DNA of 38,460 nt, from contig CAZSWH010000002.1 of assembly GCA_964611235.1 (NCBI GenBank), positions 1 through 38,460 on the forward strand. Reading direction: 5' to 3'. Under the pieces are notes generated by a model. It was not told the origin of the DNA and did not search any database. It saw only the letters and a list, made by a program, of their open reading frames with translations. Source of the stretch: Candidatus Woesearchaeota archaeon (lineage in GTDB: Archaea; Nanobdellota; Nanobdellia; Pacearchaeales; GW2011-AR1). The position numbers were made by a program, and so were the translations under genes. Positions 1 to 30,474 of the stretch are shown piece after piece (the stretch's first letter is position 1; each line of letters opens with the position of its first letter).

Positions 1-68
1 CGCAGATTTGATTAGAACTGACTTGTTCAGTTCACAATCTTTCTTATCTGCCTCCGATATTTTATTTT
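1..68 (-). repeat. Leader repeat copy 1 (cut by the window edge): promoter/5' leader hairpin element directly downstream of rpl4
   Basis: nt 1-68 equal 24677-24744 except one mismatch (g at 56 versus a). The first 37 nt are identical to 30257-30293. Contains the inverted repeat gaactga-cttgt-tcagttc. Confidence 0.8.
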
Positions 69-17163: not shown

Positions 17164-17660
17164 TTGCAAATTGTCATTCTCACGATAAGAGTTTGAGAAT
17201 CCTTAAAGATGTTTCTTTGTGCTCCAGAGATTTGTCCGCTACAATTTCCCCATTTTATCTCAATTATTCCAGCACCTTCTTTTTCAAAAAGCTCAAATTT
17301 ATAGTAATTTATTGTCGCTTCGCTTTTTATTAAATTGTCTAAAACTTCTCTTAAACTATCATTAAGATATTTGCATGCCTCCTTGTTAAGATTACGGCAG
17401 ACCTCATTTTTGTAACAGCTTCCGAATAATTCTCTATAATCTTCAAAGTCCGGCTCAAAAACAAGAGCACATTCTGTCGTTGTTCTCATTATTGAATCCA
17501 ACATATTCCCTACCTGAACACTATTCCCTTCTGCCGGTGATTCTTTAAAAGAAATGACAAGATAAACCATAAGCCCGACCACGACAAGCACGACTATAAG
17601 AACAAAACCAACTATTTCCTGCTGTGCTTTTTTACTTGAAGATATTTTTAATTTATTCAT
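17160..17660 (-). CDS. Prepilin-like (class III signal peptide-like) protein, unknown function
   Basis: N-terminus MNKLKISSSKKAQQEIVGFVLIVVLVVVGLMVYLVI (basic residues, KAQ, then a hydrophobic helix) and a Cys-containing ectodomain. Overlaps the upstream gene by 8 nt. Confidence 0.5.
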   Translation of the reverse strand: MNKLKISSSKKAQQEIVGFVLIVVLVVVGLMVYLVISFKESPAEGNSVQVGNMLDSIMRTTTECALVFEPDFEDYRELFGSCYKNEVCRNLNKEACKYLNDSLREVLDNLIKSEATINYYKFELFEKEGAGIIEIKWGNCSGQISGAQRNIFKDSQTLIVRMTICN

Positions 17661-18285
17661 TGGTTTTTACTCCTACAACTAATTTTCCGATTTCACATTT
17701 GTCATAAACATAACTGAATTCTTTTATTTTCCTGCAGATTGAGACATATGTGGAATATTCCTTAACATTTTTTTGTCCGCTGTTGTAAATCTCATAATAA
17801 TTGCAGTTTAAAGAAGGGCATTTTATGATTTCTCCTGCAGGGTAAATTTTGTAAACTTTTATTGAACTCACTGGCCAGAATGTTTCATAATATTTTCCAA
17901 AGTTCCCTAAAAGAATTCTTAATTTATCTTCGTCAAGAACGAGCGTTTCACTCGAATCAAAGTTTATTTCTGCCATGTCTGAGATTACTTTTAGTGAAGA
18001 AACTGCAGATTCCTCTTGGAGCAACATTGCTTTCTGCCTCAGACCTCTAAATTCAATTGACAAAAAAAATAATCCTACTAATATAAAAAATAAAAAAACT
18101 GCAAGAATCATAAAAGCCATCTGCTGAATTTTCATCTGTGCTTTGTTATTTTTTAGTATAGCTAAACTATTATAATTTTTTCTACTTGCGAGAAATTTCT
18201 TTTTTTCGACAAAGAAGAAAAACATGAACCGACTTGTTCGATGCTTTTTTTCTAAAAAAGAAAGAGCTCTTACCATAATCTGCAA
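17653..18285 (-). CDS. Prepilin-like or signal-anchored protein, start uncertain (M1 18285, M21 18225 or M51 18135)
   Basis: ...LKNNKAQMKIQQMAFMILAVFLFFILVGLFFLSI. The 19-bp repeat at 18181-18199 lies inside the longest reading frame, which argues for a later start. Confidence 0.45.
   Translation of the reverse strand: MQIMVRALSFLEKKHRTSRFMFFFFVEKKKFLASRKNYNSLAILKNNKAQMKIQQMAFMILAVFLFFILVGLFFLSIEFRGLRQKAMLLQEESAVSSLKVISDMAEINFDSSETLVLDEDKLRILLGNFGKYYETFWPVSSIKVYKIYPAGEIIKCPSLNCNYYEIYNSGQKNVKEYSTYVSICRKIKEFSYVYDKCEIGKLVVGVKTNE
18181..18199. repeat. 19-bp inverted-repeat partner B (tctacttgcgagaaatttc)
   Basis: Exact reverse complement of 19804-19822. Contains the near-palindrome gagaaatttct. 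Confidence 0.8.
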
Positions 18286-19256
18286 AGTTCTCCTGCGTTT
18301 AGTCTGTTTAATTTTTTAGATATTTGATTAAGTAAGATTATATTCTCTGAAGTTGCATTTTCAGTTAATCCTTTCCATATAAGAAGGTCTGGCTTGAGAT
18401 TTGTGTTGCAGTCTCTTGCATTTATTAGGTCTGCTTTTTCGCTTAGAAGTTCAGCAATTTTTCCAGTTCTTTGAAGCAGTCGCTCAACATTACATTCGTA
18501 AATATTCGGTTCTGAAAATATTGCAGCGTATATCAGGTTCCCTTTGTATTTCATTGTTCCCTCTTTTTTTTCCACAGTTCCCTCTTCATAAATTGAATTA
18601 CAATCAGTCATACACACACCATAAACCATTATATCACAATTATTCCCCTTCCCGAAACAGACTACTGTATCAGAATCAGAACAGTTGCTAATTTTAATAT
18701 TGGGAATTCTTAGTCCTATAATTTCTTCTGAGATATATTCAGGAGGATTTAATAAACAGTAATCTTCTGACATTAAAAAAATCATATCGTTTACTTTGTA
18801 AGGAAATTCAAATGGCTTGGAAAAAACATAAAAGTCCTTTCCTTCGTTTTTTTCTTTTGAGAATATGTATTTATTATGGACTGAGATTGCTCCTCCGGAT
18901 TTTCCCCATTCTTTTACAATGCCTGATTTTGTTGAGATAGATATGTCGTTTTTTCCGAAGTCTTCTTTGAAACAAATATTATTTATCCTTGTTTCTTCTC
19001 TAAAAGAAATTTTTCCGTAACTTCCTTCGGCGAAACTTGCTTGCATAGGGTCTGTGAGGATTGCCAGAGTTTTTGCAATTTCTGTGTCGCTTTGAAATTT
19101 CTTAGTCTCTCCAAATTTTACAGAACCGTATATAGCTAAAAATAAAATTGCCCCGCCAGCTATAATGGCAAAAAGCCAGACAAAACCAAACTCTCCTCTT
19201 TTTTTCCGAGCCAGCAATGGAAACATGGAACTTTGAAAAAAGTTTCTTTTTTTCAT
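18270..19256 (-). CDS. Prepilin-like protein, unknown function
   Basis: N-terminus ...LLARKKRGEFGFVWLFAIIAGGAILFLAIYG and a 280-aa Cys-containing ectodomain. Confidence 0.5.
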   Translation of the reverse strand: MKKRNFFQSSMFPLLARKKRGEFGFVWLFAIIAGGAILFLAIYGSVKFGETKKFQSDTEIAKTLAILTDPMQASFAEGSYGKISFREETRINNICFKEDFGKNDISISTKSGIVKEWGKSGGAISVHNKYIFSKEKNEGKDFYVFSKPFEFPYKVNDMIFLMSEDYCLLNPPEYISEEIIGLRIPNIKISNCSDSDTVVCFGKGNNCDIMVYGVCMTDCNSIYEEGTVEKKEGTMKYKGNLIYAAIFSEPNIYECNVERLLQRTGKIAELLSEKADLINARDCNTNLKPDLLIWKGLTENATSENIILLNQISKKLNRLNAGELCRLW

Positions 19257-19290: not shown

Positions 19291-19779
19291 TTATTCAATC
19301 TTGACCAATTTATCATAGAAATCTTTTTTTATTTTCAGATTATTTGAAACAAGGACACAGTAAGGATTTTTGCTTTCAGTAATTTTTGTAATGTTAATGT
19401 AATTTATATTTTTCCATTGCATATTTTCTGCGTTTTCTGGGGGAAGCAAAAAAGTGTTGGCTTCATAGATGTCATAATTTTTTATCATTTCATAATCTTC
19501 AAAGTTGGAGGTTATCTTTGCAGAGAGGTTAGCAAAACATACTTTTTCTATTTTGTTTGGGAGGTTAATTTTAAATTCAAACTCGCTTGACTGGGAATTC
19601 CTTGCTTTGTTAACTTCTGTTTGTAAGTCCTGATAGAACATCCCGACTTTAGAAGCATTTCCGATGTCAAGAAAGTTAGATATTGCAATGAAAGCTACTA
19701 CAACGAACACGACGATTAGAAATATTGCGAAAATAACCCCGAAGGGCATACCCATAGTTTCTTGTGCTCTTTTGTTCAT
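19291..19779 (-). CDS. Prepilin-like protein, unknown function
   Basis: N-terminus MNKRAQETMGMPFGVIFAIFLIVVFVVVAFIAI. Confidence 0.5.
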   Translation of the reverse strand: MNKRAQETMGMPFGVIFAIFLIVVFVVVAFIAISNFLDIGNASKVGMFYQDLQTEVNKARNSQSSEFEFKINLPNKIEKVCFANLSAKITSNFEDYEMIKNYDIYEANTFLLPPENAENMQWKNINYINITKITESKNPYCVLVSNNLKIKKDFYDKLVKIE

Positions 19780-19803
19780 AGGTTTCTTTCTCTTTAGAAA
19801 AGA

Positions 19804-19822
19804 GAAATTTCTCGCAAGTAGA
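19804..19822. repeat. 19-bp inverted-repeat partner A (gaaatttctcgcaagtaga)
   Basis: Exact reverse complement of 18181-18199. Embedded in the perfect palindrome gagaaatttctc and located 25-43 nt upstream of the ATG at 19779. Confidence 0.8.
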
Positions 19823-19896
19823 GAAACTTTTGTTCCAAAACTGCGTTTTGATTTATTATATACAATTAAGTAAGTAAGGTTATATAAAATTATTTA

Positions 19897-22125
19897 TTAG
19901 GCCCCAAAAAGATTTTCACCCAGGCGGACAATTGCTGAGCAGTCTGCGTCTTCGTTTTTGAATTCATCTCTGCATTTTATATAATATGTTTTGTCTTTGT
20001 TCCATTCTGCTATGTGATTTGTAGAATTTGCATAAGGCATTTCAGTTCCTTCTTCAAATGTGAAATCGCAGTTTGCGAAGTTGTAAGCACATTCACTTTC
20101 TTTGACTGTTACTATTTTGAGCAGACCTTCTTCTTCATAAATTCTAGCGATTACTGGTGCGCTTGTATCTATATCTAAAATGAATTCTATTGTGTCGCGT
20201 GCGATGTTTCCCCCTTCATCTATACATTCAATGTAATACTTGTGGCTTCCAGGACCTAAACTTTGTTTCTGGGTGCTTACTCCATCTTCATTGTTTGTGT
20301 CATAAAACATTATGAAATCTCCTTCGTTTCCTGTAGTTGAGTAATCGCATATTGATAATCCATTATTGCATCCGAAAAGTGTCTGAACATATAATTCAAT
20401 AGGTGCTGGATTTACCGCTCCAAATACTGTCCCATTAGGGAGCAGTTTGCTTATTTTTAGTGCTGTGCTTCCTCTTAAATTGAATACAAAACTTTCTCTA
20501 TTTCTGTTTCTGTCATTTACTTCTGAATTTGGTTGGTCTTCACATCTAATATAATATTTTGTCCCTTCTCTTGAAATTCCTGTAAGAGCTGTTTTGCAAG
20601 TGAAGAGTTGGTTTGCATTTATCTGATATAATTCGTTTGAACAAATCATTTGGTTCTGCATATTTTCGTAACTTTGGTCATCAAAACTCCATCTGCAGTT
20701 TGCTGGTTCATTTGTGTAAACTTCAACATTGACAGAATCTTGGTTTTCTGCTACGCATCCACTGTTCATTATTGAGGTCGCTTTTATCAGAGGAGCTGTT
20801 GTGTCAGGGCTTGGGTCAATGCACATTTTGACGGCATATTCTGCTGTATTCTCATTTCCATTTTTGTCCTTGCATCTTATAAAGAATGTTATATCTTTTC
20901 CATTTTCTAATATTAAACCAGAGCCCTCAAGAGTTTCTGCTCCTGGAAGAGAGAATTGTTCTGTGTGGTTGTATAAATATAAATTGCTTCCGCCTATGAA
21001 GGAAGTCATTTCGTCAAAATTTGTTGTGTGGTTGAAATCAATCTTACATTGTGCTGGCTCATCTATGGTGATGCCAAATTTTAGAGGAGTGAATGCTTTA
21101 AGGCACCCGTCTGAACTTTCAAGATTTATTATTTCAAATCCTGGTCCAGGGGGCGATGTTCTGACATTTGTGTATTTGTGTCCTTCTGTTATTACATTGT
21201 AATTAGGGGAGATTACAGGGGGGTTTACATCCCGAGGATTTATATTGACGCATTTTTCCTGTGTTGTTCCTTTATTTACAAGTTCACAATTCTGCCCTAA
21301 ACTTCTGCATCTATATTCAGAACAAGGCAAGGTATCATAATTACATATTTCACAATCGTTTCCCCCAGACGGCGCTTGCCAAGTCAAACAATCAAAGGTT
21401 ACAATTTCTGTGTCTGTTTTTCTGTACATAAGAATAAGGATGAATACTCCGATTCCGATTCCAAAGAGAGGGTTAGCAAGTATTTTATTCGCAGCAGTTA
21501 CATCCCATGTAGAGAAAAAATTATAAGAACCAAATCCTGCAGCCATTGCAGTTGCAAGTGCCTGTGTATTTTGCTTGCTCATTCCGAATAAACTTCCAAG
21601 CATATAGCCAACACCATAAGCAAAAAGCGCCCACTGAGCTCCTGTTGCAAGTGCGTCTAAACCTCCTCCTGTAGGAAGGCGAAGGAATTTTGAGAGAGTT
21701 GAAGAGCCTGGTTTTGCTTCAAGGGTTCCTGAGCTTAAGAAATTTCCTTCCTCCCCTTTTTGAATGATATATGGTGTCCCATCTTTAGTAACTATTTTAA
21801 TTGTTCCATCAGCTAATTGAGAAGCAGATTTTATGTTAGTTGTTTGGAGAGTGATAGGATTTGAGCCATATAATTTAGTGTTTATTGGGGTAAAACTAAT
21901 GGTTTTTGCAGCACCGGTATTTACATATAATGGAATATTTCTTGTAGCAGAAGTGCCCCCATTAGTTAAAGCATTTGCACTGCTGACTTTTATCGGATCA
22001 GTTCCACTAACAAAAGGGGTACTCAACCCAACTAAAAACGAGAAAGCAATTATAGAAATCATTAGATTTAGAATTATAAAATAAACTTTCAAACTTTCTC
22101 TTTTTATTCCCTCTTTTTTTATCAT
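19897..22125 (-). CDS. Large membrane protein: Gly-rich hydrophobic region plus Cys-rich, repeat-containing C-terminal ectodomain (paralog of the C-terminal half of 25822-29502)
   Basis: VTFDCLTWQAPSGGNDCEICNYDTLPCSEYRCRSLGQNCELVNKGT aligns with VTFECKPWQPPTGGSDCEKCNGDPLKPCSEYRCQNLGAACELVNKGT of the 1226-aa protein. Four colinear C-terminal modules end in YYI(K/R/E)C. Confidence 0.6.
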   Translation of the reverse strand: MIKKEGIKRESLKVYFIILNLMISIIAFSFLVGLSTPFVSGTDPIKVSSANALTNGGTSATRNIPLYVNTGAAKTISFTPINTKLYGSNPITLQTTNIKSASQLADGTIKIVTKDGTPYIIQKGEEGNFLSSGTLEAKPGSSTLSKFLRLPTGGGLDALATGAQWALFAYGVGYMLGSLFGMSKQNTQALATAMAAGFGSYNFFSTWDVTAANKILANPLFGIGIGVFILILMYRKTDTEIVTFDCLTWQAPSGGNDCEICNYDTLPCSEYRCRSLGQNCELVNKGTTQEKCVNINPRDVNPPVISPNYNVITEGHKYTNVRTSPPGPGFEIINLESSDGCLKAFTPLKFGITIDEPAQCKIDFNHTTNFDEMTSFIGGSNLYLYNHTEQFSLPGAETLEGSGLILENGKDITFFIRCKDKNGNENTAEYAVKMCIDPSPDTTAPLIKATSIMNSGCVAENQDSVNVEVYTNEPANCRWSFDDQSYENMQNQMICSNELYQINANQLFTCKTALTGISREGTKYYIRCEDQPNSEVNDRNRNRESFVFNLRGSTALKISKLLPNGTVFGAVNPAPIELYVQTLFGCNNGLSICDYSTTGNEGDFIMFYDTNNEDGVSTQKQSLGPGSHKYYIECIDEGGNIARDTIEFILDIDTSAPVIARIYEEEGLLKIVTVKESECAYNFANCDFTFEEGTEMPYANSTNHIAEWNKDKTYYIKCRDEFKNEDADCSAIVRLGENLFGA

Positions 22126-22146
22126 ATTACCTATTTTTTGAGCCTA

Positions 22147-22830
22147 TTACTCTGCTCTTGCACCAGTAACAACTATTGTATCTCCTTTCTTTAACGGTTC
22201 TCCTTTAATTTCTATATTATAATATCTCAAAAGTTCTTCTAAGTTCCAAAAAGATAATAAAATTTCATTTTGCTGGTTAAACAAATTACAATTATATCTT
22301 TTTTTTGCAATTTCAATTTTTATAGGATTTCCATTAAGAGTTTCTATTATTTTATAACCTCCCTCAGGAAAATCTCCTTCTATCATTTTAGTAATTAAAA
22401 AATTTGTAGTAAAATAATTAAATCTTGTTTTACTGTTAGGATGTGTTGTTCTTCCTATAAGTTCTTCTGCCCTATCTTTAAATGTTCTTCCATAAACTTC
22501 TCCTATATCTTCTTTTTCATTTCTGTCTAAATTGTAAATTTCTGTTGAATATATTTGAGGAGTTGGTATGTTTGAAGAACTTTGACTTTCATTATTTTCA
22601 CTATTTCCAGTATTACTTGGTTCTTGCACATTTACATAGGTAGTGCTTCCTCTCGGTCCTTCAATTTCATTTCTAATTGTGCTGTCAATCGCACTAACTG
22701 TTGTTTGTTGCCATGCTGCTGTCACGAGAGAATCTGCAAGTTGTTCATTGCATCCTGAACCAACTAAACTTGCAAGTCCGATTAAACTTGCTCCTGCGTA
22801 ATTCCTGATTTTTTGTTTTAAGTTTTCCAT
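22147..22830 (-). CDS. Putative lipoprotein, unknown function
   Basis: Lipobox-like LASLVGSGC after a signal sequence, then a Ser/Asn-rich linker and a globular C-terminal domain. Confidence 0.5.
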   Translation of the reverse strand: MENLKQKIRNYAGASLIGLASLVGSGCNEQLADSLVTAAWQQTTVSAIDSTIRNEIEGPRGSTTYVNVQEPSNTGNSENNESQSSSNIPTPQIYSTEIYNLDRNEKEDIGEVYGRTFKDRAEELIGRTTHPNSKTRFNYFTTNFLITKMIEGDFPEGGYKIIETLNGNPIKIEIAKKRYNCNLFNQQNEILLSFWNLEELLRYYNIEIKGEPLKKGDTIVVTGARAE

Positions 22831-22895
22831 ATTATTTCTATGTTTTTTGATATTTAAACCTTTCGTTTTGTAACCTTTATTAAGTGGTGTCTCTT

Positions 22896-24668
22896 TTAAT
22901 TAATTTCATTCCAATCATCTCCTGATATTGCTCGGACTATCATTCCTGTGAAACCGCCTTTTATTTTGTTTATTGTGTTTGGTGCGAAGTTTTTTACTTT
23001 CCCGTCAATTTTCCAATCATATCCTTCATCTGTGTATTTTTCTATATAGTTGATGTATCCACCGCAGTCGCCGAGTGATGTGCAGATTCGGTTCGCTTCA
23101 AGAGCCCATTGTTCTTCTAGGCATTCTTTTCCTTCAATAATTTTTTCATTTCCGAAAACGTCTTTTTCTTTTACAACTGTGCATTGTGCACTTGCCTGAC
23201 CGCATATTTGCTGTGAGTTGGCGTCATCCCAGAAGTTTAGTCCTGGCGGGAATTGAGGGACGCAAACTCTCTTTTCACCTGAATATGTTGTTTCACTTCC
23301 GCTTGTTTCAAGGCCTGTTATTGGTGCGATTGAATTTCCTGTTGCTGTTGGGTTTGTAAATGCTTTGCTTTCTCCAGCAGTTGGATTTGAGAAACCTGTT
23401 GTTTGTCCGCTTTCGGAGGTTCCTGCTCCTAAAGTCATTCCAGTTACATGAGGTAACCACTGGCAATCTCTTTTGTCAATATTGAGACAATCTTTTTCTT
23501 TTGTCTGTAAAACACAATCTTGCCAGCGATTTACTCTGCAGGCAGCTGTCTGGAAGAATCCACTGTCTGTTTCTATTCCTCCTTCAAGACATATTTCATT
23601 TCTGTATTCTGCACACGGCTCGACTTTTACTTCTCCGTCCACGCAAATTTCTCTAAAGTATCTTGAACCAACTTTATCTAATCCCTTTCCCACATTTCCA
23701 TCATAGACACACCAACTCTCTCCATTAATTCTTTTGTTTCCATTTCTATCCACACATTCTGTTCGCTTACAATAATAATCACTTCCTGCTGGTTTTCCAA
23801 TGTTTAAAGTTCCGTCCCATACAGCACATCTGCTTCCTAATAAATATTCACAATTTCCACAATCTTTATTTGAGCCGTCGTTTGGAGAACAGACCAAATC
23901 AGGTTCTAAAACTCGACCATTGTTCCAACTTTTATCTTTGTTTGAAGAATAAACATTTTCGCGATTGCCACAAGAATCTGTCCAGTAAACTTTTCCATTG
24001 TAGCAGGTAGTTGAGACTTGTCTTGCACAGATTGTGTTGAGCTCTTCTGCCGAACATAGTAAGTCCTTATAGAATTTTTTTTCAGAAGAGGAAGAATTTT
24101 CTATTGTTTCTACTTGTTCTAATGCTCCGCAGTCTACTCTTGTTGTGAATTTGCAGACTCTTTCATAATCTTTTTCATAAACGCACGCCCCTATATCTTG
24201 CGACTGAGCCGCAGCTATACACTGAATTTCAGATGTGATTTCTGTTCTATAATTGTTTTCAACTCCAAAGAAACTTGATAATCTTTTGCATCGGACTAAT
24301 GAGACAAACGCAGCTTGGTCAGAAATGATGCAACATCCTAATTGGCATTGGGGGACTTCTGTAATTGAACGGCTATCCCAAGTTCCTCCACTACTCGAAC
24401 AGACACTTTGAGGCGTATTTTCCATACAGATTCCTTCAGAAGAATCATAGCAAGTTCCTAATCTACAATAAGATGTTGTTTCACAGGAAGTCATAGAACT
24501 TTTGAAATTAGGGTCGCAATTTTCTTCTTCTGTGTTAATACAATAAGCTCCTCCTTTTGTTTTCTCGCAACAACTGCTCGGCTCTGACAGAGTAGTCGCC
24601 GAGGAGACAATTCCTATTAAAGAAAATAATATTAAGATTCCGATTGAAAGGATTATTTTTTTATTCAT
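22896..24668 (-). CDS. Secreted cysteine-rich protein (paralog of the N-terminal half of 25822-29502)
   Basis: Signal peptide MNKKIILSIGILILFSLIGIVSSA. NGESWCVYDGNVGKGLDKVGSRYFREICVDGEVKVEPCAEYRNEIC aligns with NGESWCVYDGKIGGGDDIVGSRHWRYVCNNGEIQVEPCADYRNQIC. The ATG at 24666-24668 is preferred over the TTG at 24674. Confidence 0.6.
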   Translation of the reverse strand: MNKKIILSIGILILFSLIGIVSSATTLSEPSSCCEKTKGGAYCINTEEENCDPNFKSSMTSCETTSYCRLGTCYDSSEGICMENTPQSVCSSSGGTWDSRSITEVPQCQLGCCIISDQAAFVSLVRCKRLSSFFGVENNYRTEITSEIQCIAAAQSQDIGACVYEKDYERVCKFTTRVDCGALEQVETIENSSSSEKKFYKDLLCSAEELNTICARQVSTTCYNGKVYWTDSCGNRENVYSSNKDKSWNNGRVLEPDLVCSPNDGSNKDCGNCEYLLGSRCAVWDGTLNIGKPAGSDYYCKRTECVDRNGNKRINGESWCVYDGNVGKGLDKVGSRYFREICVDGEVKVEPCAEYRNEICLEGGIETDSGFFQTAACRVNRWQDCVLQTKEKDCLNIDKRDCQWLPHVTGMTLGAGTSESGQTTGFSNPTAGESKAFTNPTATGNSIAPITGLETSGSETTYSGEKRVCVPQFPPGLNFWDDANSQQICGQASAQCTVVKEKDVFGNEKIIEGKECLEEQWALEANRICTSLGDCGGYINYIEKYTDEGYDWKIDGKVKNFAPNTINKIKGGFTGMIVRAISGDDWNEIN

Positions 24669-24744
24669 TAGCAAATCGCAGATTTGATTAGAACTGACTT
24701 GTTCAGTTCACAATCTTTCTTATCTGCCTCCAATATTTTATTTA
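24669..24744 (-). repeat. Leader repeat copy 2: promoter/5' leader hairpin element ending 9 nt before the ATG of 22896-24668
   Basis: 68 of its nt match 1-68 with one mismatch, and it shares cattagcaaatcgcagatttgattagaactgacttgttcagttcacaa with copy 3. Confidence 0.8.
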
Positions 24745-25031
24745 CCACTTTTATATTCCTCTTTAATAAAATATACTATTAAACTTATAATCGTATATAG
24801 AATTATTATTAATCCAAAGAGCAAGACAGAAGCAAGAGCTCCTGCTAAAATTTGCCCTTTTGAATTTAAATTCTCTGTAATAATATTCGGAAGAACGGCT
24901 GATGTATAAATAATCCAAATAAAGAAAGCAAAGATAAGGGTAAGAATCACTTTCCATTTGCCTGGCTTCAAAAATTCAAATATTTCTTTTAACTTTTCTG
25001 GTTTTCCTAATATTCCTTTTTTTGTTATCAT
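24738..25031 (-). CDS. Small membrane protein (2 TM segments)
   Basis: Two hydrophobic helices. The ATG at 25029-25031 forms an ATGA overlap with the stop of the upstream gene (25028-25030), so it is preferred over 25052. Confidence 0.5.
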   Translation of the reverse strand: MITKKGILGKPEKLKEIFEFLKPGKWKVILTLIFAFFIWIIYTSAVLPNIITENLNSKGQILAGALASVLLFGLIIILYTIISLIVYFIKEEYKSGK

Positions 25032-25777
25032 CCGAAATATCCTGCTGGCCACGCAATGCTCCTGCTGGCGAACTGAAATTTATTTTCAAATATTTTGCTA
25101 TTGATTGTGTAAACTGTTGTCCCGTCGTCCATTTTCATTTTTTCAATGTAGTAATCAGGATAAAAGTCATTTATGTAATCCACATCAGAATCCCCATAGG
25201 CAGTTTCAAATTGGAGGAGTGAAGTAGCGAGCATTAAAATATCGTAGAGAGGAGAGTTGACTTCAATATTAAATCTTGAAAATTTCCCGGGGCCGATTGT
25301 GGTAGGGGCATTAATAAAGATTTTTATGATTTCAGGTTCTATTGAAATGTTGTAGTTCAATTTTCCTGGGGTGACATCATAGCCTTCTGCTTTTAATTCT
25401 GAAAGAGAATCTTCATAACAATTGTTTATTTTTTGAGAAACATATTTTTCTAACTGCTCTTCAAAATGCTGTTTTAAAAAAGGTTTTTGGATAGTGCATG
25501 TTTTATAATACTCAGTAGTGTAACAAAGGTAAGTAATTTTCTCGTCTTTGTAAGGATAAGTAAGTTCAGGATTTATGTAGCCTGCATTTTTTTCTAATTC
25601 TTTAACAGATTCTTCTATTGTTTCCCTGACGCATCCTTCAAAACTTAATTTTCCTCCTCTCTCTGAGATATAAGTTGGTCTAAACCATAAAAAGAAAATT
25701 AGAATAATTGAGATAATAACAATCCCTAAAATAATAAATAATGTTACCTGCCCTTTTTTTGCGAACCTCTTTCCCAT
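25028..25777 (-). CDS. Prepilin-like protein, paralog of 29499-30248
   Basis: N-terminus MGKRFAKKGQVTLFIILGIVIISIILIFF. Shared blocks with the paralog: C-V-x-E-x-IE-x-SV, TYLCY..YY..C, PLY, and a C-terminal (A/S)-x-(W/F)P(A/P)G. Confidence 0.55.
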   Translation of the reverse strand: MGKRFAKKGQVTLFIILGIVIISIILIFFLWFRPTYISERGGKLSFEGCVRETIEESVKELEKNAGYINPELTYPYKDEKITYLCYTTEYYKTCTIQKPFLKQHFEEQLEKYVSQKINNCYEDSLSELKAEGYDVTPGKLNYNISIEPEIIKIFINAPTTIGPGKFSRFNIEVNSPLYDILMLATSLLQFETAYGDSDVDYINDFYPDYYIEKMKMDDGTTVYTINSKIFENKFQFASRSIAWPAGYFG

Positions 25778-25821
25778 CTTTATTTTAGTTATTTTCTATT
25801 TATAAATTCTATTATATTGCA

Positions 25822-28800
25822 TTAAGTAGGAGAAATAGTAATGGAGCACCCTGCTGGAAGATTTTCGAACTCGTCCTTGCATTTGATATAATAAATTTGT
25901 CCGCGGAATATTTCTATAGTGTGTTTTTCTCCAAGAGAAGTTGATGTTTCATTATTCCATTTAAATTCGCAGTTGGTTTTAGAATAACTGCACTCTGCTG
26001 GTTCGTTTGTGATAAAATATATTTTTCCTTTTTCCTGCCAAACTCTTGCTATCTGTGGCGATGAACTGTCAATTTCAGATTCTTCCTCCTCTTCCTCCTC
26101 TTCCTCGTAATTTTCTGTTTCATATGAACTGTCAAGTAAGATTTCAAATTCTGCCTTTCCTCTTACGAAGTCACCTGTTTCATCTTTACATTCAATATAA
26201 ATTATGTTTTGTTTTGAAGGGACGCTTAAGCCTGGTTGTTTGTGGATTCTTGCTTCGCCTGTCTCAAAAATTTCTATCATTTTTTCGTAGCCTGACATTG
26301 AGTATGAACAAATATGGTATTCTCCTCCGCCTGAAGTTCTTACCTGAATTTCTATTGTAGTGAATTCTGTTGAGGTTCTGAAATCCTCATTTGGGGCAAT
26401 CCAATCTATTGTGATTTTGCTTTCAGGTTTTCTCAGTGTATATAGTGTGCTTTGCGTGTTGGCGTTTCTTTCGTTGCTTCGGTTTAATTCTTCAAGCCAT
26501 GGCTGGTCTTTGCATCTTATATAGTATTTGTTTTCAATGGATGTTATCGATAGGGTTGTTTCGCAGGAATATCCTTGTGTTGATGATGGCGATTCAAACC
26601 CATCTTCACAAATCATTTTATTGTTCATCATAGAGTAATCTTTGTCTGAGGTGTCCCATTTACAAGTAGATAGTTCGTTTGTTATTACTTTGATTTTTTC
26701 TTCTGTTGAATTGAAACTGATTAATCTATTGTCTTCAGGTTCTATTGCACGGATTCTTGGGGCGGTTTTGTCCGGTCCTTGATTGACGCACATATCTATT
26801 GTATAAAAGTTCTGAGTCTCGTGTCCGTTAGTGTCTTGGCATTTTACATAAAGAGTCAATTCTCCAGACCAATCAACTCCGTGGCTCTCTCCGTGGCTCG
26901 GGTCAGGAAGCGTGAAAAACATTGTGTGGTTATATCCAAAAAGATTTGAGCCGAAGTCAAAGTTCATTTCAGAGAAGTCTTTCATTTCTAAGTCAAATCT
27001 GCATTGCGCTGGTTCGTCTGTTGTGATTCCAAATAAGATATCAGTGTAAGCGTCAAGGCATTCTCCTTGAGTAGAGGAAATTTTGAATCCTTTGTCAGAT
27101 ATGCTACTGTATTTTTTATTTTCAGAGATTACTCCATATTGTGGTTGGAGCTTTGGAGGGATTACATCATTTGGGTTTTTGTGGACACATAGTTCGTTGT
27201 TTGTTCCTTTGTTTACTAATTCGCAGGCAGCACCTAAATTTTGGCATCTGTATTCAGAGCAGGGCTTTAGCGGGTCGCCATTACATTTTTCACAATCGCT
27301 TCCTCCTGTCGGCGGTTGCCATGGTTTGCATTCAAATGTAACTGTTTTTGGGTCGCAGTCAGAACCTCCGAAGAATAAAGAGATGATTGTAAGAATGATT
27401 CCTATAATCATAAGAGGAGCAAATAAGGCTCCTAATTCGATAATACCTAAAACCTGAGTCATTGCTGATCCAACCATACTCCCACCAACAGCCATTAAAA
27501 TTGAACCAATAGGAGCGAGCCCAAGGGCTTTGGCTAAATAAGCTCCTGTAAGCATTCCGATGCCTGCTCCAATCGCAGCGCCGGCAAAACCTGCCATATT
27601 AGCAGTAAATCCTGCCCCCACTGGATCAACAAGTGGTGCAGCTATACCAGAAAGCTCTGCAAGAGTTAGACTTCCTGTAGCATAAACTCCTGCAGCATAT
27701 CCTATCCCTAAAAATCCTGCCCCTGTTTTCATAAAATCACTTGTTATATCATAATCTTCTCCATTTTCTCCACCGCTTATAACTCCTGCAGATTTAAGGT
27801 ATTTAGTATAATCTTCAACTTCTGCTCTCTGCCCTGGAATAGGATTTGCTAATTGTTTTAATTTATTTATCCATGAAGAACTTAGCCTTGGGGCTTTTGT
27901 AACTTTATAATTTTCAGTGTATTTTCCTACAATGTTTACTTCGCCTCCACAATCGCCGAGTGACCTGCAAAAGTCGTTCATTTTTTGTGTGAATTCTTCT
28001 GTTAAACAATCTCCATTATATTCTATCTCACATCCTCCAAATAGTTTTGGTTTATAGACAACTGTGCATTTTTGCGTTGCCATTCCACAGATGGCTTTTG
28101 CTGTTTCAGAGTATCTCTGGTCAGTTAAATCAAAACCTGCAGGATATTTTGGAGTGCACACATCAAAACTAAATTTATCTGCTATATTCACTTTTTCTAT
28201 TCTGCAATTTAGAGTTTTTGCACATTTTTCCAAGCCGTCTTCTTCGCTGTTAAGGGAAATACATTCTCTCCAATTGTTTGCTACACAAGAAGATGTTCTA
28301 AATTCAATTTCTTTTCCTTCTATGTCAAAAGTGTTTGATTGAATACAAATCTGGTTTCTATAATCAGCACATGGCTCAACTTGTATTTCTCCATTGTTGC
28401 AGACATATCGCCAGTGTCTTGAGCCGACTATATCATCTCCTCCTCCAATTTTTCCGTCATAAACGCACCAGCTCTCTCCATTCTTGTATGCCTCTCCCTT
28501 GAACATACAGGAAGTTGGTTTGCAGTAGAAATTTCCTGAATTAACGTTGAAGTTATTTGCCCCAGCAGAAGAACATATTCCCCCTAAAAATCTATTGCAG
28601 TTTCCACAGGTTTTGCTGTTGGCATTTCCATCTTTATTACTCGCTCCGCAACTTTCTTCCAGCGGGGCGATTTTTTCCCAGTAATTTTGGTCATTCATTT
28701 TTGAGCTGTCATAAATATTGGCTATGTTACCACAAGAATCCAAGAAATAAACTCCATCTTTTCCATCAATACAGGCTGTTTGAGTTGTTTTTTCACAGGA

Positions 28801-29502
28801 AGTGTTAAGTTCTTTTGAGGTGCATAAATATCCTTCATTAAATTCCCCTTTATAATTTAGGCAACTTTTTTCTGTTATTAATTTACATTCTCCTCCGCCA
28901 AGAACGCACGCTCCTTCTTTTTGGGTTGATGAAAGTAATATGCATTGAAGTTCGTTTAAGTCTGATTTCCATTCCAGTTCTAACCCTCTCCACGAACTTT
29001 CTGTCTGGCATTGTCCTTGTGTTACGAATAGTGAGATACTCCCCAAGACACAGCATCCTTTTTTTGCTCCAGGGAGATTGCAGTTTGGGTCAGAGTTCCA
29101 ACTTGCAGTGCAGTCAGCTCTTAAAACATTGTTGTCATAAATTCCTTTTTTTTCATTATAACAACAGCCTTTTACACAAAAGGAGGTGCTTGAGCAGAGT
29201 GCTCCTTCAGCGAATTGTCCTGCGCAGTATTCTTCAGTTGAAGTCGCACATTTTTCACTATTTTTATTGATTGAACAACATCCAATTTGTTGTGCTGAAA
29301 CGACCTGGAAAAGGGGTGTTCTAATTTTTTTGTATATCCCTATTAATGCTTTTTCAATTAAGTTGTTTTTTTTGGGGTTTATTCCAAAGTAGTCTTCGTT
29401 GAATAGATTTCTTGAAGAATAGAGGATATAGGAAAAAGCGAAAGTTGAACTTATAATTAATATTAATTCAAAATAAGTGATGATTATCTTTTTTGTTTTC
29501 AT
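25822..29502 (-). CDS. Giant (1226 aa) cysteine-rich membrane protein: N-terminal Cys-rich ectodomain, Gly-zipper hydrophobic region, C-terminal repeat ectodomain
   Basis: Equals the 590-aa type plus the 742-aa type in one chain (alignments given for those two features). The ATG at 29500-29502 forms an ATGA overlap with the upstream stop. Includes a poly-Glu linker (EEEEEEEE). Confidence 0.65.
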   Translation of the reverse strand: MKTKKIIITYFELILIISSTFAFSYILYSSRNLFNEDYFGINPKKNNLIEKALIGIYKKIRTPLFQVVSAQQIGCCSINKNSEKCATSTEEYCAGQFAEGALCSSTSFCVKGCCYNEKKGIYDNNVLRADCTASWNSDPNCNLPGAKKGCCVLGSISLFVTQGQCQTESSWRGLELEWKSDLNELQCILLSSTQKEGACVLGGGECKLITEKSCLNYKGEFNEGYLCTSKELNTSCEKTTQTACIDGKDGVYFLDSCGNIANIYDSSKMNDQNYWEKIAPLEESCGASNKDGNANSKTCGNCNRFLGGICSSAGANNFNVNSGNFYCKPTSCMFKGEAYKNGESWCVYDGKIGGGDDIVGSRHWRYVCNNGEIQVEPCADYRNQICIQSNTFDIEGKEIEFRTSSCVANNWRECISLNSEEDGLEKCAKTLNCRIEKVNIADKFSFDVCTPKYPAGFDLTDQRYSETAKAICGMATQKCTVVYKPKLFGGCEIEYNGDCLTEEFTQKMNDFCRSLGDCGGEVNIVGKYTENYKVTKAPRLSSSWINKLKQLANPIPGQRAEVEDYTKYLKSAGVISGGENGEDYDITSDFMKTGAGFLGIGYAAGVYATGSLTLAELSGIAAPLVDPVGAGFTANMAGFAGAAIGAGIGMLTGAYLAKALGLAPIGSILMAVGGSMVGSAMTQVLGIIELGALFAPLMIIGIILTIISLFFGGSDCDPKTVTFECKPWQPPTGGSDCEKCNGDPLKPCSEYRCQNLGAACELVNKGTNNELCVHKNPNDVIPPKLQPQYGVISENKKYSSISDKGFKISSTQGECLDAYTDILFGITTDEPAQCRFDLEMKDFSEMNFDFGSNLFGYNHTMFFTLPDPSHGESHGVDWSGELTLYVKCQDTNGHETQNFYTIDMCVNQGPDKTAPRIRAIEPEDNRLISFNSTEEKIKVITNELSTCKWDTSDKDYSMMNNKMICEDGFESPSSTQGYSCETTLSITSIENKYYIRCKDQPWLEELNRSNERNANTQSTLYTLRKPESKITIDWIAPNEDFRTSTEFTTIEIQVRTSGGGEYHICSYSMSGYEKMIEIFETGEARIHKQPGLSVPSKQNIIYIECKDETGDFVRGKAEFEILLDSSYETENYEEEEEEEEESEIDSSSPQIARVWQEKGKIYFITNEPAECSYSKTNCEFKWNNETSTSLGEKHTIEIFRGQIYYIKCKDEFENLPAGCSITISPT

Positions 29503-30248
29503 ATTCCTGGAGGAAACGCGCAACTCCGAATTGCAAATTTAAATTCTTTTCCAGTCTTCTTATCTACCACTTTGTAAATTTTACTGCCATCGAAGTCGAT
29601 TCTCCATATTTTATATTCTGGGTGGAGGAGCATATAACTGTTATATTCGAAATAGCAATATTGTGATTCGCTGTTGGTAATCTCTCTTGCTATATTAATT
29701 AATTCATAAAGAGGGAACAATAAATCAAAGCTGAAATCTTCAAAATTCTGGGAACTTTCGTCTTTTAATATCTGAACTTTCTTTTTTACATCCACTCTTA
29801 TTTTTCCAGGAAGTAAAATAATTGAAAGATTTGTAGCACCCCCACTGACCTCAAGACCCTCTCCTTCATAATCTTCTTTCATTCTGTTGAAACAATCTTG
29901 AACTTCATTTTTAATATCCTCTTTTATTTCATACTCTATTTTTTCCTGAAGTATTGGGTAAAGATTATAACAAGAAAGGTAATAGTCCCCTTGATAACAA
30001 AGATAAGTGTAATATTCTCCGTCGTATAAAATTTTTTGTTGTTGTTGGAGTCCTCCCCCATTTTTTAATATAATATCAACTGACTTTTCTATCGATTCTT
30101 TTACACATTTCTGAATGTAACTTTTGGGGTTGGTGATTATTGGTTTCTCATCTTTAATTTTGTTTGAAAGAAGAAAGAAAAGAATAATGACTATAAATAT
30201 TAATATTCCAAGGATAATAAAAATCGTGACCTGTCCTTTATTTTTCAT
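29499..30248 (-). CDS. Prepilin-like protein, first gene of the locus
   Basis: N-terminus MKNKGQVTIFIILGILIFIVIILFF (KGQ followed by a hydrophobic helix). The ATG at 30246-30248 is preferred over the TTG at 30254. Confidence 0.55.
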   Translation of the reverse strand: MKNKGQVTIFIILGILIFIVIILFFLLSNKIKDEKPIITNPKSYIQKCVKESIEKSVDIILKNGGGLQQQQKILYDGEYYTYLCYQGDYYLSCYNLYPILQEKIEYEIKEDIKNEVQDCFNRMKEDYEGEGLEVSGGATNLSIILLPGKIRVDVKKKVQILKDESSQNFEDFSFDLLFPLYELINIAREITNSESQYCYFEYNSYMLLHPEYKIWRIDFDGSKIYKVVDKKTGKEFKFAIRSCAFPPGI

Positions 30249-30329
30249 TAGCAAATCGCAGATTTGATTAGAACTGACTTGTTCAGTTCACAACCTTCCC
30301 TTCACTGCCTTCAGGATTTTATTTTTCAT
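30249..30329 (-). repeat. Leader repeat copy 3 (more diverged distal half)
   Basis: The proximal 48 nt (including the ATG) are identical to copy 2. The distal part is diverged, with one indel, but keeps the hairpin core. Confidence 0.75.
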
Positions 30330-30474
30330 TTTCCTCTCTAAAAAGCAAATCTATTGCAGCTTCGATAACATGGGATTTATTTCTAAAATTTCTCTTTTTA
30401 GTAATTTCTTTTATTTTCTGAATAGTTTCTTTTTCTACACTGGCGGAAATTCTTTTTTTTGTAATTGTGAGAAT
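30319..30474 (-). CDS. Possible ribbon-helix-helix (CopG-like) DNA-binding protein; no canonical start codon found
   Basis: Minus-strand frame reads ..ITKKRISASVEKETIQKIKEITKKRNFRNKSHVIEAAIDLLFREENEK* with a typical RHH strand-helix-helix pattern. The open frame after the stop at 30484-30486 contains only ATA/ATT/TTA-type codons, so the start is unresolved. Confidence 0.3.
   Translation of the reverse strand: MLTITKKRISASVEKETIQKIKEITKKRNFRNKSHVIEAAIDLLFREENEK

What the first reader, a model, noticed from the sequence alone, without database searches (positions are those of the whole stretch)
19897..29502. Tandem paralogous modules with a gene fusion/fission: one 1226-aa protein equals a 590-aa plus a 742-aa protein next door
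Module A is the prepilin-like gene 29499-30248 plus the giant gene 25822-29502. Module B is the prepilin-like paralog 25028-25777, a 2-TM protein, 22896-24668, a lipoprotein, and 19897-22125.

The N-terminal ~545 aa of the giant protein align with the 590-aa secreted protein. Examples are GESWCVYDG.(I/V)G.G.D.VGSR, VEPCA(D/E)YRN(Q/E)IC, and SLGDCGG near both ends.

Its C-terminal ~630 aa align with residues ~150-742 of the 742-aa protein (VTF(E/D)C..WQ.P.GG.DCE.CN, PCSEYRC..LG..CELVNKGT). The break point falls just before the Gly-rich membrane region.

This shows that the secreted Cys-rich part and the membrane-embedded part work together. It is a Rosetta-stone type argument for physical interaction.
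Basis: seen in the sequence. Interest (0 to 1): 0.65.

Follow-up and report, generated by a model that had tools for sequence, protein, structure and literature searches.

The report
Split and fused archaeal surface spike
A tiny uncultivated archaeon encodes the same large, cysteine-rich cell-surface protein twice, once as one chain and once as two separate proteins; this pattern recurs across dozens of related genomes and ties together the parts of a conserved but completely uncharacterised cell-envelope gene cluster.

Summary
The 1226-aa protein matches the 590-aa protein (E 4e-59 and 6e-17) and the 742-aa protein (E 7e-106). The matches survive masking of all cysteines. Independent assemblies reproduce the split without indels.

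The cut is not linear. The giant's conserved N-terminal membrane anchor goes with the 742-aa protein. The 590-aa protein is therefore the Cys-rich ectodomain excised from between the anchor and the Gly-zipper helices, with its own signal peptide.

The genes belong to a conserved cluster in Pacearchaeota/Woesearchaeota (DPANN): pilin-like protein, fused giant A, pilin-like protein, module B, four small pilin-like proteins, a regulator and an S-layer-like protein. Module B is split in about 46 species-level loci and fused in 13–15, in the same syntenic slot. At least 10 independent interconversions are needed. A lipoprotein gene precedes 28 of 61 split bases but only 1 of 57 fused genes.

The stalk is a chain of Ig-like domains. 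The Cys-rich ectodomain has no known fold. No component matches Pfam, NCBIfam or the PDB.

The Rosetta-stone inference is supported. Function is inferred, not shown, and is most likely an extracellular envelope spike or pillar.

The parts
29499..30248 (-). pilA: 249-aa pilin-like protein of module A. It has a class-III-type signal (MKNKG|QVTIFIILGI) and overlaps the giant's start by 4 nt.
   Evidence: The family is conserved upstream of giant A in 27+ loci. No Pfam or PDB relative.
25822..29502 (-). Giant A, 1226 aa, fused architecture: anchor, Cys-rich ectodomain, Gly-zipper helices, Cys knot, Ig-like stalk.
   Evidence: There are 692 homologs, and the top 120 are all fused proteins of ~1050-1400 aa.
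29413..29502 (-). Giant A aa 1-30: conserved N-terminal membrane anchor (family consensus KKIIAGFELVLMIVSVFAFSYFVY).
27823..29292 (-). Giant A aa ~71-560: Cys-rich ectodomain (42 Cys), homologous to the 590-aa protein.
27358..27735 (-). Giant A aa ~590-715: Gly/Ala-rich glycine-zipper helices, the membrane segment.
25825..27357 (-). Giant A aa 716-1226: Cys knot plus Ig-like stalk, homologous to aa 237-742 of the 742-aa protein.
25028..25777 (-). pilB: 249-aa pilin-like paralog of module B (AKKG|QVTLFIILGI).
24738..25052 (-). tm104: 104-aa two-TM protein. It is accessory, found only in the window, L010 and L011.
24669..24761 (-). Repeated ~95-nt leader with a hairpin, directly upstream of the 590-aa gene. 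The 50 nt at 24664-24713 are 100% identical to the sequence upstream of pilA.
   Evidence: No Rfam match.
30249..30336 (-). Second copy of the repeated leader, upstream of pilA.
1..87 (-). Third copy of the repeated leader, at the contig edge. Positions 1-67 are 98.5% identical to 24677-24743.
22896..24668 (-). Bn (590 aa): stand-alone Cys-rich ectodomain (41 Cys) with an ordinary Sec-type signal peptide. It has no membrane anchor and ends after GGFTGM.
   Evidence: No fold match in the PDB or BFVD.
22147..22830 (-). 227-aa lipoprotein (lipobox LVGSG|C), encoded 21 nt upstream of the 742-aa gene. It belongs to a family that always lies directly upstream of a split base gene.
19897..22125 (-). 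Bc (742 aa): the base. It has the same parts as the fused protein minus the Cys-rich ectodomain.
22021..22125 (-). Bc aa 1-35: N-terminal anchor, a degenerate copy of the giant-type anchor (5.2 bits against the anchor HMM).
21676..22020 (-). Bc aa 36-150: variable extracellular loop with a small beta unit. It is equivalent to the linker of B-fused proteins.
21418..21675 (-). Bc aa 151-236: three Gly-zipper helices. Helices a and c look membrane-spanning. Helix b is charged and probably not.
19900..21417 (-). Bc aa 237-742: Cys knot (7 Cys in 64 aa) followed by about five Ig/FnIII-like beta-sandwich domains.
19291..19779 (-). p162: small pilin-like protein (NKRA|QETMGMPFGVIF).
   Evidence: Present in 40/40 complete loci.
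18270..19256 (-). p328: pilin-like protein (KKRG|EFGFVWLFAI), 10 Cys.
17653..18285 (-). p210: pilin-like protein (NNKA|QMKIQQMAFMIL). The true start is probably downstream of the ORF's TTG.
17160..17660 (-). p166: pilin-like protein (SKKA|QQEIVGFVLIV).
   Evidence: Present in 35/40 complete loci.
16810..17163 (+). Divergent HVO_A0114-family winged-helix regulator, a conserved boundary of the cluster.
14238..16364 (-). S-layer-like protein (S_layer_C domain). It has a signal peptide, no Cys and no C-terminal anchor. It is syntenic with the cluster in 34/40 loci.

Best explanation
The region is the core of a conserved, unannotated cell-envelope gene cluster of Pacearchaeota/Woesearchaeota-type DPANN archaea.

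It holds two paralogous modules. Each module pairs a ~250-aa pilin-like protein (class-III-type signal) with a membrane-anchored extracellular 'spike'. The spike is built from five parts:
1. A conserved N-terminal anchor helix.
2. A ~500-aa disulfide-rich ectodomain of unknown fold.
3. A glycine-zipper helical membrane segment.
4. A small Cys knot.
5. A stalk of about five Ig-like domains.

In module A these are one polypeptide. In module B of this genome the Cys-rich ectodomain has been taken out of the loop between the anchor and the Gly-zipper helices. It is made as a separate, soluble, Sec-secreted 590-aa protein. The 742-aa protein keeps the anchor, a short loop, the Gly-zipper helices and the stalk. 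A lipoprotein is encoded just upstream of it.

Inference: the secreted ectodomain docks non-covalently onto the membrane base, possibly helped by the lipoprotein and the translationally coupled pilin-like protein. This would rebuild the same complex that module A makes as one chain.

Predicted topology: N-terminus inside, and the ectodomain, loop and Ig stalk all outside.

Likely role (inferred, about 0.35 each for the two leading options): either an envelope pillar that reaches and tethers the anchor-less S-layer protein encoded next door, or a cell-contact/adhesion spike. In both cases it would be assembled together with the four small pilin-like proteins.

The direction of evolution is unresolved. 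Fused and split forms have interconverted at least 10 times. Each change must also have relocated or duplicated the anchor.
For: Shown:
- Pairwise homology is highly significant and independent of Cys.
- The split is reproducible in independent assemblies.
- The cluster is conserved in order across about 60 species-level loci. B is split in about 46 and fused in 13-15, in the same slot.
- B-fused proteins are 55-65% identical to both split proteins.
- The B clade is monophyletic in 100/100 bootstraps. At least 10 changes of state are needed on both the N and C trees. The N and C distances correlate at r = 0.91.
- The anchor HMM hits 49/55 fused, 36/62 C-only and 1/48 N-only proteins. Of 27 B-fused proteins, 26 have an N-terminal anchor and none has an internal one.
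- N-only tails are short and non-hydrophobic.
- A lipobox gene lies directly upstream of 28/61 C-only genes against 1/57 fused genes, p = 3.8e-9.
- The AlphaFold model of the 742-aa protein (pLDDT 81.6) shows the anchor helix, three helices, and then about five beta-sandwich domains. These match tandem Ig/FnIII ectodomains of adhesion molecules (E down to 1.8e-15).
- Cys content is 3-12% in the stalk and knot, against 0-0.8% in cytoplasmic proteins of the window.
- The charge and hydropathy profile supports three spans with the stalk outside.
- pilA overlaps the giant by 4 nt. In L001, pilB overlaps Bn by 10 nt.
- All six small proteins carry a conserved [KR][GA]|Q class-III-type signal.
- The S-layer-like neighbour has no anchor of its own.
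Against: - No direct evidence shows that the 590-aa and 742-aa proteins bind each other. Co-folding could not be run.
- The r = 0.91 correlation is expected for any two neighbouring genes inherited together.
- The topology rests on hydropathy and charge only. If all three Gly-zipper helices span the membrane, the stalk would be cytoplasmic.
- No type IV pilus ATPase, platform protein or prepilin peptidase is in the window or in the flanks that were annotated. Processing and assembly of the pilin-like proteins are therefore unsupported.
- No family, fold (for the ectodomain) or paper gives a function.
- High sequence conservation argues against a host-specific adhesin. Ig-like stalks are generic.
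- No RNA data were available.
Confidence: 0.7

Rival explanations
1. Type-IV-pilus-like tip or priming complex. The four small pilin-like proteins and the two 249-aa proteins would form a short (pseudo)pilus. The giants would enter it through their pilin-like N-terminal helix as tip adhesins. This would parallel the bacterial minor pilins with PilY1, or the large PilY-like proteins proposed for archaeal T4P loci.
For: Six families carry a conserved [KR][GA]|Q signal plus a hydrophobic helix. The giant anchor has KK, then 4-5 residues, then a 92%-conserved E/Q inside the helix, which recalls Glu5 of type IV pilins. Archaeal T4P loci with five or more minor pilins and a large putative tip adhesin are described in PMC4858521.
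Against: No ATPase, TadC-like platform or prepilin peptidase is in the cluster or the flanks. No pilin Pfam family is hit. Only about 35% of the giant anchors have G/A at the putative -1 position. The giants have further membrane helices in mid-chain, which is incompatible with extraction into a filament.
Confidence: 0.15
2. After the split, the two module-B proteins work independently (subfunctionalisation). The secreted Cys-rich protein would be a free exoprotein, and the base would function alone. The Rosetta-stone inference would then hold only for the fused forms.
For: The 590-aa protein has no anchor. Stand-alone lipoprotein + base pairs exist without a nearby ectodomain gene (L019, L025). 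The spacing between the two genes can reach 7 kb, with unrelated cargo in between.
Against: In all ~46 split loci both genes are kept in the same order in the same slot. Repeated interconversion with the fused form shows that the two states are interchangeable. The genome with a stand-alone base (L025) also has a complete split module (L037).
Confidence: 0.1
3. The split is an assembly or sequencing frameshift, or a recent pseudogenisation of a single gene.
Against: The two genes are separated by 770 nt that contain a conserved lipoprotein gene. Each has its own start and its own signal or anchor. Independent assemblies show no indels. Identical proteins occur on other contigs (P0241, P0121). 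Hundreds of stand-alone orthologs of each half exist.
Confidence: 0.01
4. The Ig-like 'stalk' is cytoplasmic because all three Gly-zipper helices span the membrane. The protein would then be a transmembrane link between an outside Cys-rich domain and an inside scaffold.
For: AlphaFold predicts three consecutive helices of TM-like length. After the last helix the balance is K+R 2.0 against D+E 2.5, which is not decisive.
Against: Helix b carries on average 1.4 K/R and 1.6 D/E, with a mean hydropathy of 0.19. The stalk and knot have 3-12% Cys, with nearly all Cys invariant. That pattern is typical of exported proteins in this genome. The stalk's fold matches ectodomains.
Confidence: 0.12

Closest known systems
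Rosetta-stone (gene fusion/fission) pairs used to infer functional linkage (established concept; from my own knowledge)
   Same: Two separate proteins in one genome are homologous to non-overlapping parts of a single protein. Here the composite protein is even in the same genome, next door, and orthologous fused and split forms occupy the same locus in relatives.
   Different: The split is not a linear cut. An internal ectodomain is removed from between two membrane segments, and the N-terminal anchor stays with the C-terminal part. The state has flipped at least 10 times. A third gene, the lipoprotein, is associated with the split state.
Archaeal type IV pilus-like loci with several FlaFind-positive minor pilins and a large putative tip adhesin (Makarova et al. 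2016, PMC4858521); the bacterial minor-pilin/PilY1 complex (my own knowledge)
   Same: There is a cluster of five to six small proteins with class-III-type signals. They sit next to very large surface proteins.
   Different: The cluster has no ATPase, platform or peptidase. No pilin family is hit. The large proteins have internal membrane helices and a novel Cys-rich domain instead of a PilY/vWA or beta-propeller domain. The cluster is restricted to DPANN lineages not covered by that census.
Two-component archaeal S-layers with a membrane-anchored stalk protein, such as Sulfolobales SlaB holding SlaA (my own knowledge; review PMC5744192 listed, not read)
   Same: The base is a membrane-anchored protein with a stalk of beta-sandwich domains. 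It is encoded next to an S-layer-like protein that has no anchor of its own.
   Different: The anchor is N-terminal and combined with a Gly zipper, not a C-terminal TM. There is no coiled coil. No sequence or fold relation was detected. An interaction with the S-layer protein was not tested.
Tandem Ig/FnIII ectodomains of adhesion molecules: PTP-delta, contactin, Sidekick, the GhpA grappling hook and an RTX adhesin (Foldseek hits)
   Same: The fold of residues ~300-735 of the 742-aa protein matches them, with E down to 1.8e-15.
   Different: This is only a generic domain-level resemblance, with 9-13% identity and low global TM-scores. The membrane segment, the Cys knot and the partner ectodomain have no counterpart.

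Membership tests
Rosetta-stone fusion/fission pair | Two separate proteins are significantly homologous to non-overlapping parts of one composite protein. | tested here: met
   E 4e-59 and 6e-17 for giant 52-549; E 7e-106 for giant 610-1223. The result is robust to Cys masking.
Rosetta-stone fusion/fission pair | Orthologous fused and split forms exist, not merely paralogs or an artefact. | tested here: met
   B-fused proteins are 55-65% identical to both halves and sit in the same syntenic slot. Independent assemblies confirm the split.
Rosetta-stone fusion/fission pair | The separate proteins interact physically. | not testable with these tools
   No multimer prediction or experiment was available. 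The structure jobs were limited to single chains.
Archaeal type IV pilin-like (class III signal peptide) proteins | A short, positively charged leader ends in G/A/S and is followed by a ~20-residue hydrophobic helix. | tested here: met
   A [KR][GAS][QE] motif precedes the helix in 32/36 pilA, 50/57 pilB, 43/63 p162, 33/60 p328, 41/60 p210 and 31/35 p166. For the giants' anchors only about 35% have G/A at the equivalent position.
Archaeal type IV pilin-like (class III signal peptide) proteins | The protein matches a curated pilin, archaellin or Class_IIIsignal family. | tested here: not met
   No Pfam or NCBIfam hits. The PDB profile search gave only an insignificant N-terminal match to an archaellin (E 2.4).
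Type IV pilus-like assembly system | An assembly ATPase (FlaI/PilB-type), a TadC/FlaJ platform and a prepilin peptidase are in the locus or genome. | tested here: not met
   None is in the 38-kb window or in the annotated flanks of L001 and L003. The rest of the genome could not be searched.
Ig-like / FnIII-like ectodomain arrays | Tandem beta-sandwich domains are recognised by structure comparison. | tested here: met
   586 PDB hits at E <= 1e-3, top 1.8e-15. The model has pLDDT 81.6. Some orthologs have weak Pfam Big_13 hits.
Glycine-zipper membrane segment | Repeated (G/A/S)xxxGxxx(G/A/S) motifs occur in hydrophobic helices. | tested here: met
   The motif is present in 188/190 family members in the 130 aa before the Cys knot, at about 3.8 per protein. 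NCBI names one homolog 'glycine zipper family protein'.
Lipobox lipoprotein | A signal peptide ends in a lipobox with an invariant Cys. | tested here: met
   LVGSG|C in the 227-aa protein. The family has 11 members, of which 10 scored a lipobox-like motif with my pattern and 1 did not. Lipid modification itself is not testable here.
S-layer stalk/anchor protein (SlaB-like) | The protein is homologous to, or shares architecture with, known anchors (C-terminal TM, coiled coil) and binds an S-layer protein. | tested here: not met
   No sequence or fold relation was found, and the architecture differs. Only synteny with an anchor-less S_layer_C protein supports the idea.

The most novel reading that the evidence does not exclude
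The cluster is the conserved cell-contact and envelope machine of Pacearchaeota/Woesearchaeota. It would consist of a pilin-like stem plus two paralogous spikes. The novel-fold Cys-rich ectodomain would be the ligand- or membrane-engaging part, and the Gly-zipper bundle could oligomerise into a conduit. Its modularity would be actively exploited. Recombinase-linked spare cassettes (integrase, lipoprotein, base) and the insertion hot spot between the ectodomain and base genes would let cells swap or uncouple parts. That would explain the 10 or more fused/split transitions.
Probability: 0.2. Interest if true: 0.85.

Novelty: new variant of a known kind. Interest (0 to 1): 0.6.

Why it matters
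Pacearchaeota and Woesearchaeota are abundant, uncultivated, ultra-small archaea that are thought to depend on other cells. How their envelope is built, and how they touch partners, is unknown.

This analysis turns a set of 'hypothetical proteins' into a defined cluster of 10-12 genes, conserved across the group. Its domain architecture and topology are predicted. The natural fused/split experiment, repeated at least 10 times, says which parts belong to one complex.

That yields concrete, testable targets for metaproteomics, cryo-ET and heterologous expression. The targets are the Cys-rich ectodomain of unknown fold, the Ig stalk, the associated lipoprotein, and the six pilin-like proteins.

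It also offers an unusual case of gene fission by excision of an internal ectodomain rather than by a simple cut.

Tried and rejected
- **Pfam and NCBIfam** on all cluster proteins gave nothing.
- **Profile searches against PDB sequences** for the ectodomain, base and pil249 families gave nothing significant.
- **Foldseek of the ectodomain model** against the PDB and against viral predicted structures gave a best E of 0.4-0.5. There is therefore no support for a viral-fusogen-like, fusexin-like or any other known fold.
- **Frameshift, assembly artefact or pseudogene** is rejected.
- **Similarity due only to Cys spacing** is rejected.
- **B-fused genes as read-through fusions of present-day split pairs** is rejected, because no B-fused protein has an internal anchor.
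- **Simple fission by a stop codon** is rejected, because the anchor is on the C half and not the N half.
- **Polarising fusion versus fission.** Unweighted parsimony puts 'split' at the root of crown B (100/100 bootstraps; 10 changes against 12). The all-fused outgroup A and the anchor positions argue for a fused deeper ancestor. The question is left unresolved.
- **Recombinase involvement at in-cluster junctions.** Homologs of the cassette integrase were found only in L019 and L025.
- **The repeated leader as a known RNA family.** No Rfam match. It is also not a consistently framed upstream ORF, from my reading.
- **Expression data.** No RNA runs were available.
- **Literature.** No paper describing the cluster was found.
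- **P0048.** The equal contig length (38,460 bp) is a coincidence, and it is a different contig.

Full report
**1. The observation**

- The 1226-aa protein (25822-29502) aligns with the 590-aa protein (22896-24668) at 35% identity over giant 52-424, E 4e-59. A second segment, 448-549, gives E 6e-17.
- It aligns with the 742-aa protein (19897-22125) at 36% identity over giant 610-1223 = 140-733, E 7e-106.
- The two 249-aa pilin-like proteins are full-length paralogs, E 3e-28.

- With every Cys masked, the matches remain at E 4e-28 and 1e-75. Identity outside Cys columns is 34-37%. Thirty-six of about 40 ectodomain Cys and 21 of 22 C-half Cys are aligned. The best of 200 shuffles reaches 25 bits against 202 observed.
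- The stretch occurs in 24 salt-marsh metagenome runs. Contigs of two independent runs cover 19800-24686 with 0-2 substitutions and no indels. The stop of the 590-aa gene, the intervening lipoprotein gene and the start of the 742-aa gene are therefore real.

**2. Organism and family**

The window carries archaeal ribosomal proteins S19e, L31e, L3 and L4. It also carries PCNA, the primase small subunit and an S_layer_C protein.

Homologs of the three proteins are named Pacearchaeota, Woesearchaeota, Nanoarchaeota or 'archaeon' by their sources. A few labels are evidently mis-binned: Pseudomonadota, Patescibacteria and Methanococcoides sp. SA1.

No cluster protein matches Pfam or NCBIfam or any PDB sequence. 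I found no paper describing the cluster.

An exhaustive profile search places the Cys-rich ectodomain in 1,688 of 1.84 billion representative clusters (893 at E <= 1e-30). It is always at the N-terminus of the protein. Lengths are bimodal: 73 of the best 147 new representatives are 850 aa or shorter and 72 are 1000 aa or longer.

**3. The split is old, common and not a linear cut**

The giant's top 120 homologs are all fused. The 590-aa and 742-aa proteins each have hundreds of stand-alone orthologs at 50-80% identity. There are also about 19 proteins of 1210-1298 aa whose N half is 55-65% identical to the 590-aa protein and whose C half is 54-63% identical to the 742-aa protein. These are module-B proteins in fused form.

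The break point is precise.
- The 590-aa protein ends just after a conserved GGFTGM motif.
- B-fused proteins continue through a variable 67-232-aa linker into '...PGSSW..QWA'. That linker corresponds to residues ~36-150 and onward of the 742-aa protein.

Unexpectedly, the N-terminus of the 742-aa family is homologous to the N-terminal anchor of the fused giants. The logo is KK-x-(V/I)-A-(G/S)-F-(E/Q)-(L/I)-x-L-(M/L)-I-x-S-x-F-A-F-S-(Y/F). An HMM of this anchor scores 8 bits or more in these fractions:

| Class | Proteins scoring >= 8 bits |
|---|---|
| Fused | 49 of 55 |
| C-only | 36 of 62 (many others are degenerate) |
| N-only | 1 of 48 |

The window's 742-aa protein scores 5.2 bits. N-only proteins have ordinary Sec signal peptides and short, non-hydrophobic tails.

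So the 742-aa protein is the fused protein minus its Cys-rich ectodomain, and the 590-aa protein is that ectodomain made soluble. Of 27 B-fused proteins, 26 have the anchor at the N-terminus and none has an internal one. Fused genes are therefore not read-throughs of today's split pairs, and simple stop-codon fission is excluded too. Either direction requires relocating or duplicating the anchor.

**4. The cluster**

I annotated 80 species-representative loci and three contigs found by protein look-up. They share one gene order:

pilA (~250 aa) - giant A (fused) - pilB (~250 aa) - module B (split or fused) - p162 - p328 - p210 - p166 - divergent HVO_A0114-type regulator - S-layer-like protein - x184 - x221.

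- In 40 loci that span pilB to the regulator, p162, p328 and p210 are present in 40 of 40, and p166 in 35 of 40.
- Module B is split in about 46 loci and fused in 13-15.
- Some genomes have a third module.
- All six small families carry a conserved [KR][GA]|Q class-III-type signal followed by a family-specific hydrophobic helix.
- pilA overlaps the giant by 4 nt. In L001, pilB overlaps Bn by 10 nt. This suggests translational coupling of the 250-aa protein with the gene that carries the ectodomain.

**5. Evolutionary dynamics**

On neighbour-joining trees of the C core, module B is monophyletic in 100 of 100 bootstraps. Both the C-core and N-core trees need at least 10 changes of state:

| Scenario | Changes needed |
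|---|---|
| Only fusions allowed | 10 |
| Only fissions allowed | 17 |
| Equal costs, split root | 10 |
| Equal costs, fused root | 12 |

The window's nearest B relatives after L001 are fused (L033, L003). The N and C distances correlate at r = 0.91.

Polarity is unresolved. Crown-B parsimony favours a split root. The all-fused paralog A, which has the same architecture, favours a fused deeper ancestor.

The repeated interconversion is itself the strongest argument that fused and split forms are functionally equivalent. It implies that ectodomain and base form one unit.

**6. The junction is a hot spot, and a lipoprotein goes with the split state**

The spacing between Bn and Bc runs from -41 nt to 7.4 kb. 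The gaps hold variable cargo: nucleotidyltransferase/HEPN-like pairs, radical-SAM genes and a polytopic membrane protein.

Very often the gene directly upstream of Bc is a small lipobox protein.
- An iterative HMM finds a lipoprotein family of 11 unique members. All of them lie 2-147 nt upstream of a C-only gene.
- Any lipobox gene is directly upstream of 28 of 61 C-only genes against 1 of 57 fused genes, Fisher p = 3.8e-9.

The window's 227-aa lipoprotein belongs to this family.

In two MAGs a discrete 3.4-kb block [tyrosine recombinase - 188-aa lipoprotein - ~690-aa base] lies elsewhere, among defence-type genes. In one genome that base is a close paralog (74% aa) of the in-cluster base.

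Integration of such a cassette into the linker of a fused gene would produce exactly the split architecture seen here. This is only an idea, and recombinase homologs were not found at in-cluster junctions.

**7. Structure and topology**

The AlphaFold model of the 742-aa protein (87-sequence alignment, pLDDT 81.6) shows these features:
- An anchor helix at 7-35.
- A disordered loop with a small beta unit at 90-121.
- Three helices at 155-179, 184-206 and 219-233.
- A Cys knot.
- About five beta-sandwich domains.

Foldseek matches the stalk to tandem Ig/FnIII ectodomains of adhesion molecules: 586 hits at E <= 1e-3, best 1.8e-15.

The 590-aa model (pLDDT 73.7, confident over ~150-410 and 470-570) is rich in beta hairpins. 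It has no significant match in the PDB or BFVD.

The family-wide charge and hydropathy analysis gives:
- K+R 3.2 before the anchor.
- Helix a moderately hydrophobic.
- Helix b charged (K+R 1.4, D+E 1.6, mean KD 0.19).
- Helix c strongly hydrophobic and uncharged.

This favours three spans (anchor, a, c), with the N-terminus inside and the ectodomain/loop and stalk outside.

Cys content agrees. Cytoplasmic proteins of the window have 0-0.8% Cys, exported ones 1.2-6.9%, the stalk 3.1-3.6% and the knot 11-12%. Glycine-zipper motifs occur in 188 of 190 family members.

**8. Mechanism**

*Shown:* homology, architecture, synteny, repeated interconversion, the lipoprotein association, and the Ig-like stalk.

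*Inferred:* the secreted ectodomain docks on the membrane base to rebuild the fused spike, and the lipoprotein and pilB assist.

For the biological role I rank the options as follows:
1. An envelope pillar whose Ig stalk (about five domains) reaches the anchor-less, Cys-free S-layer-like protein encoded in the same cluster.
2. A cell-contact or adhesion spike.
3. A type-IV-pilus-like tip complex. This ranks lower because no assembly machinery is present and the giants have internal membrane helices.

The high conservation (50-80% identity between species, nearly all Cys invariant) fits a structural machine better than a host-specific adhesin.

**9. Verdict**

It needs refining: the event is an excision of an internal ectodomain, it is ancient and recurrent, and it comes with a lipoprotein partner.

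The gene families and the cluster appear to be undescribed. Function remains inferred.

Noticed in passing
window 24669-24761, 30249-30336 and 1-87 (minus strand): A ~95-nt element with a stable hairpin (-19.1 kcal/mol, z = -3.8) is present three times: upstream of the 590-aa gene, upstream of pilA, and at the contig edge. Fifty nt, including the start codon, are 100% identical between the first two copies. This explains a 3x depth spike and assembly-graph branching at ~24.65-24.75 kb. It probably also explains why the contig ends at position 1. No Rfam match. It may be a shared promoter or leader, or a trace of recent gene conversion.
   Followed up: partly
L025 8432-11823 and L019 8609-12018: A discrete 3.4-kb block [short tyrosine recombinase (Phage_integrase) - 188-aa lipoprotein - ~690-aa base protein] is 80% identical at the DNA level in two MAGs, with unrelated flanks. 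It lies among PLD, Schlafen/AlbA_2, HATPase_c_3, HerA and XRE-HTH genes. In one genome the base is a close paralog (74% aa) of the in-cluster base (L037). It may be a mobile or spare cassette.
   Followed up: partly
Gaps between Bn and Bc in L006, L008, L015, L051, L057, L063-L066, L070-L073, L079; L084 14297-15197: The cluster, and especially the Bn-Bc junction, is an insertion hot spot. Cargo includes nucleotidyltransferase/HEPN (HepT) toxin-antitoxin-like pairs, radical-SAM genes, HTH genes and a 336-aa polytopic membrane protein.
   Followed up: partly
window 14238-16364 and 11284-11841: The S-layer-like protein (S_layer_C) has a signal peptide but no Cys and no C-terminal TM or sorting signal. 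A weak archaeosortase/exosortase-like membrane protein is encoded nearby.
   Followed up: partly
window 33975-35765 and 32687-33943: Two further secreted proteins outside the conserved cluster have no family assignment. One is 596 aa with a signal peptide and 28 Cys. The other is 418 aa with a signal peptide, a Cys-rich C-terminal part and a C-terminal TM helix.
   Followed up: no
L010, L044, L048, L060, L074 (upstream of pilA): Some genomes carry a third spike module, an extra fused giant upstream. The number of modules therefore varies between 2 and 3.
   Followed up: no
window 25605-25873: Contigs of runs X2 and X3 show a joint that skips 267 nt, covering the 5' part of pilB and the 3' end of the giant. 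Only 21 letters support it on one side. It may be a strain variant or a graph artefact.
   Followed up: no
window 22063-22125 (start of the 742-aa gene); public records of homologs: The public gene call for this protein (P0121, 721 aa) starts 21 codons later and would cut the anchor. Orthologs support the 742-aa start. Several homologs sit in MAGs labelled Pseudomonadota, Patescibacteria or Methanococcoides sp. SA1, which are probably binning or contamination errors.
   Followed up: partly
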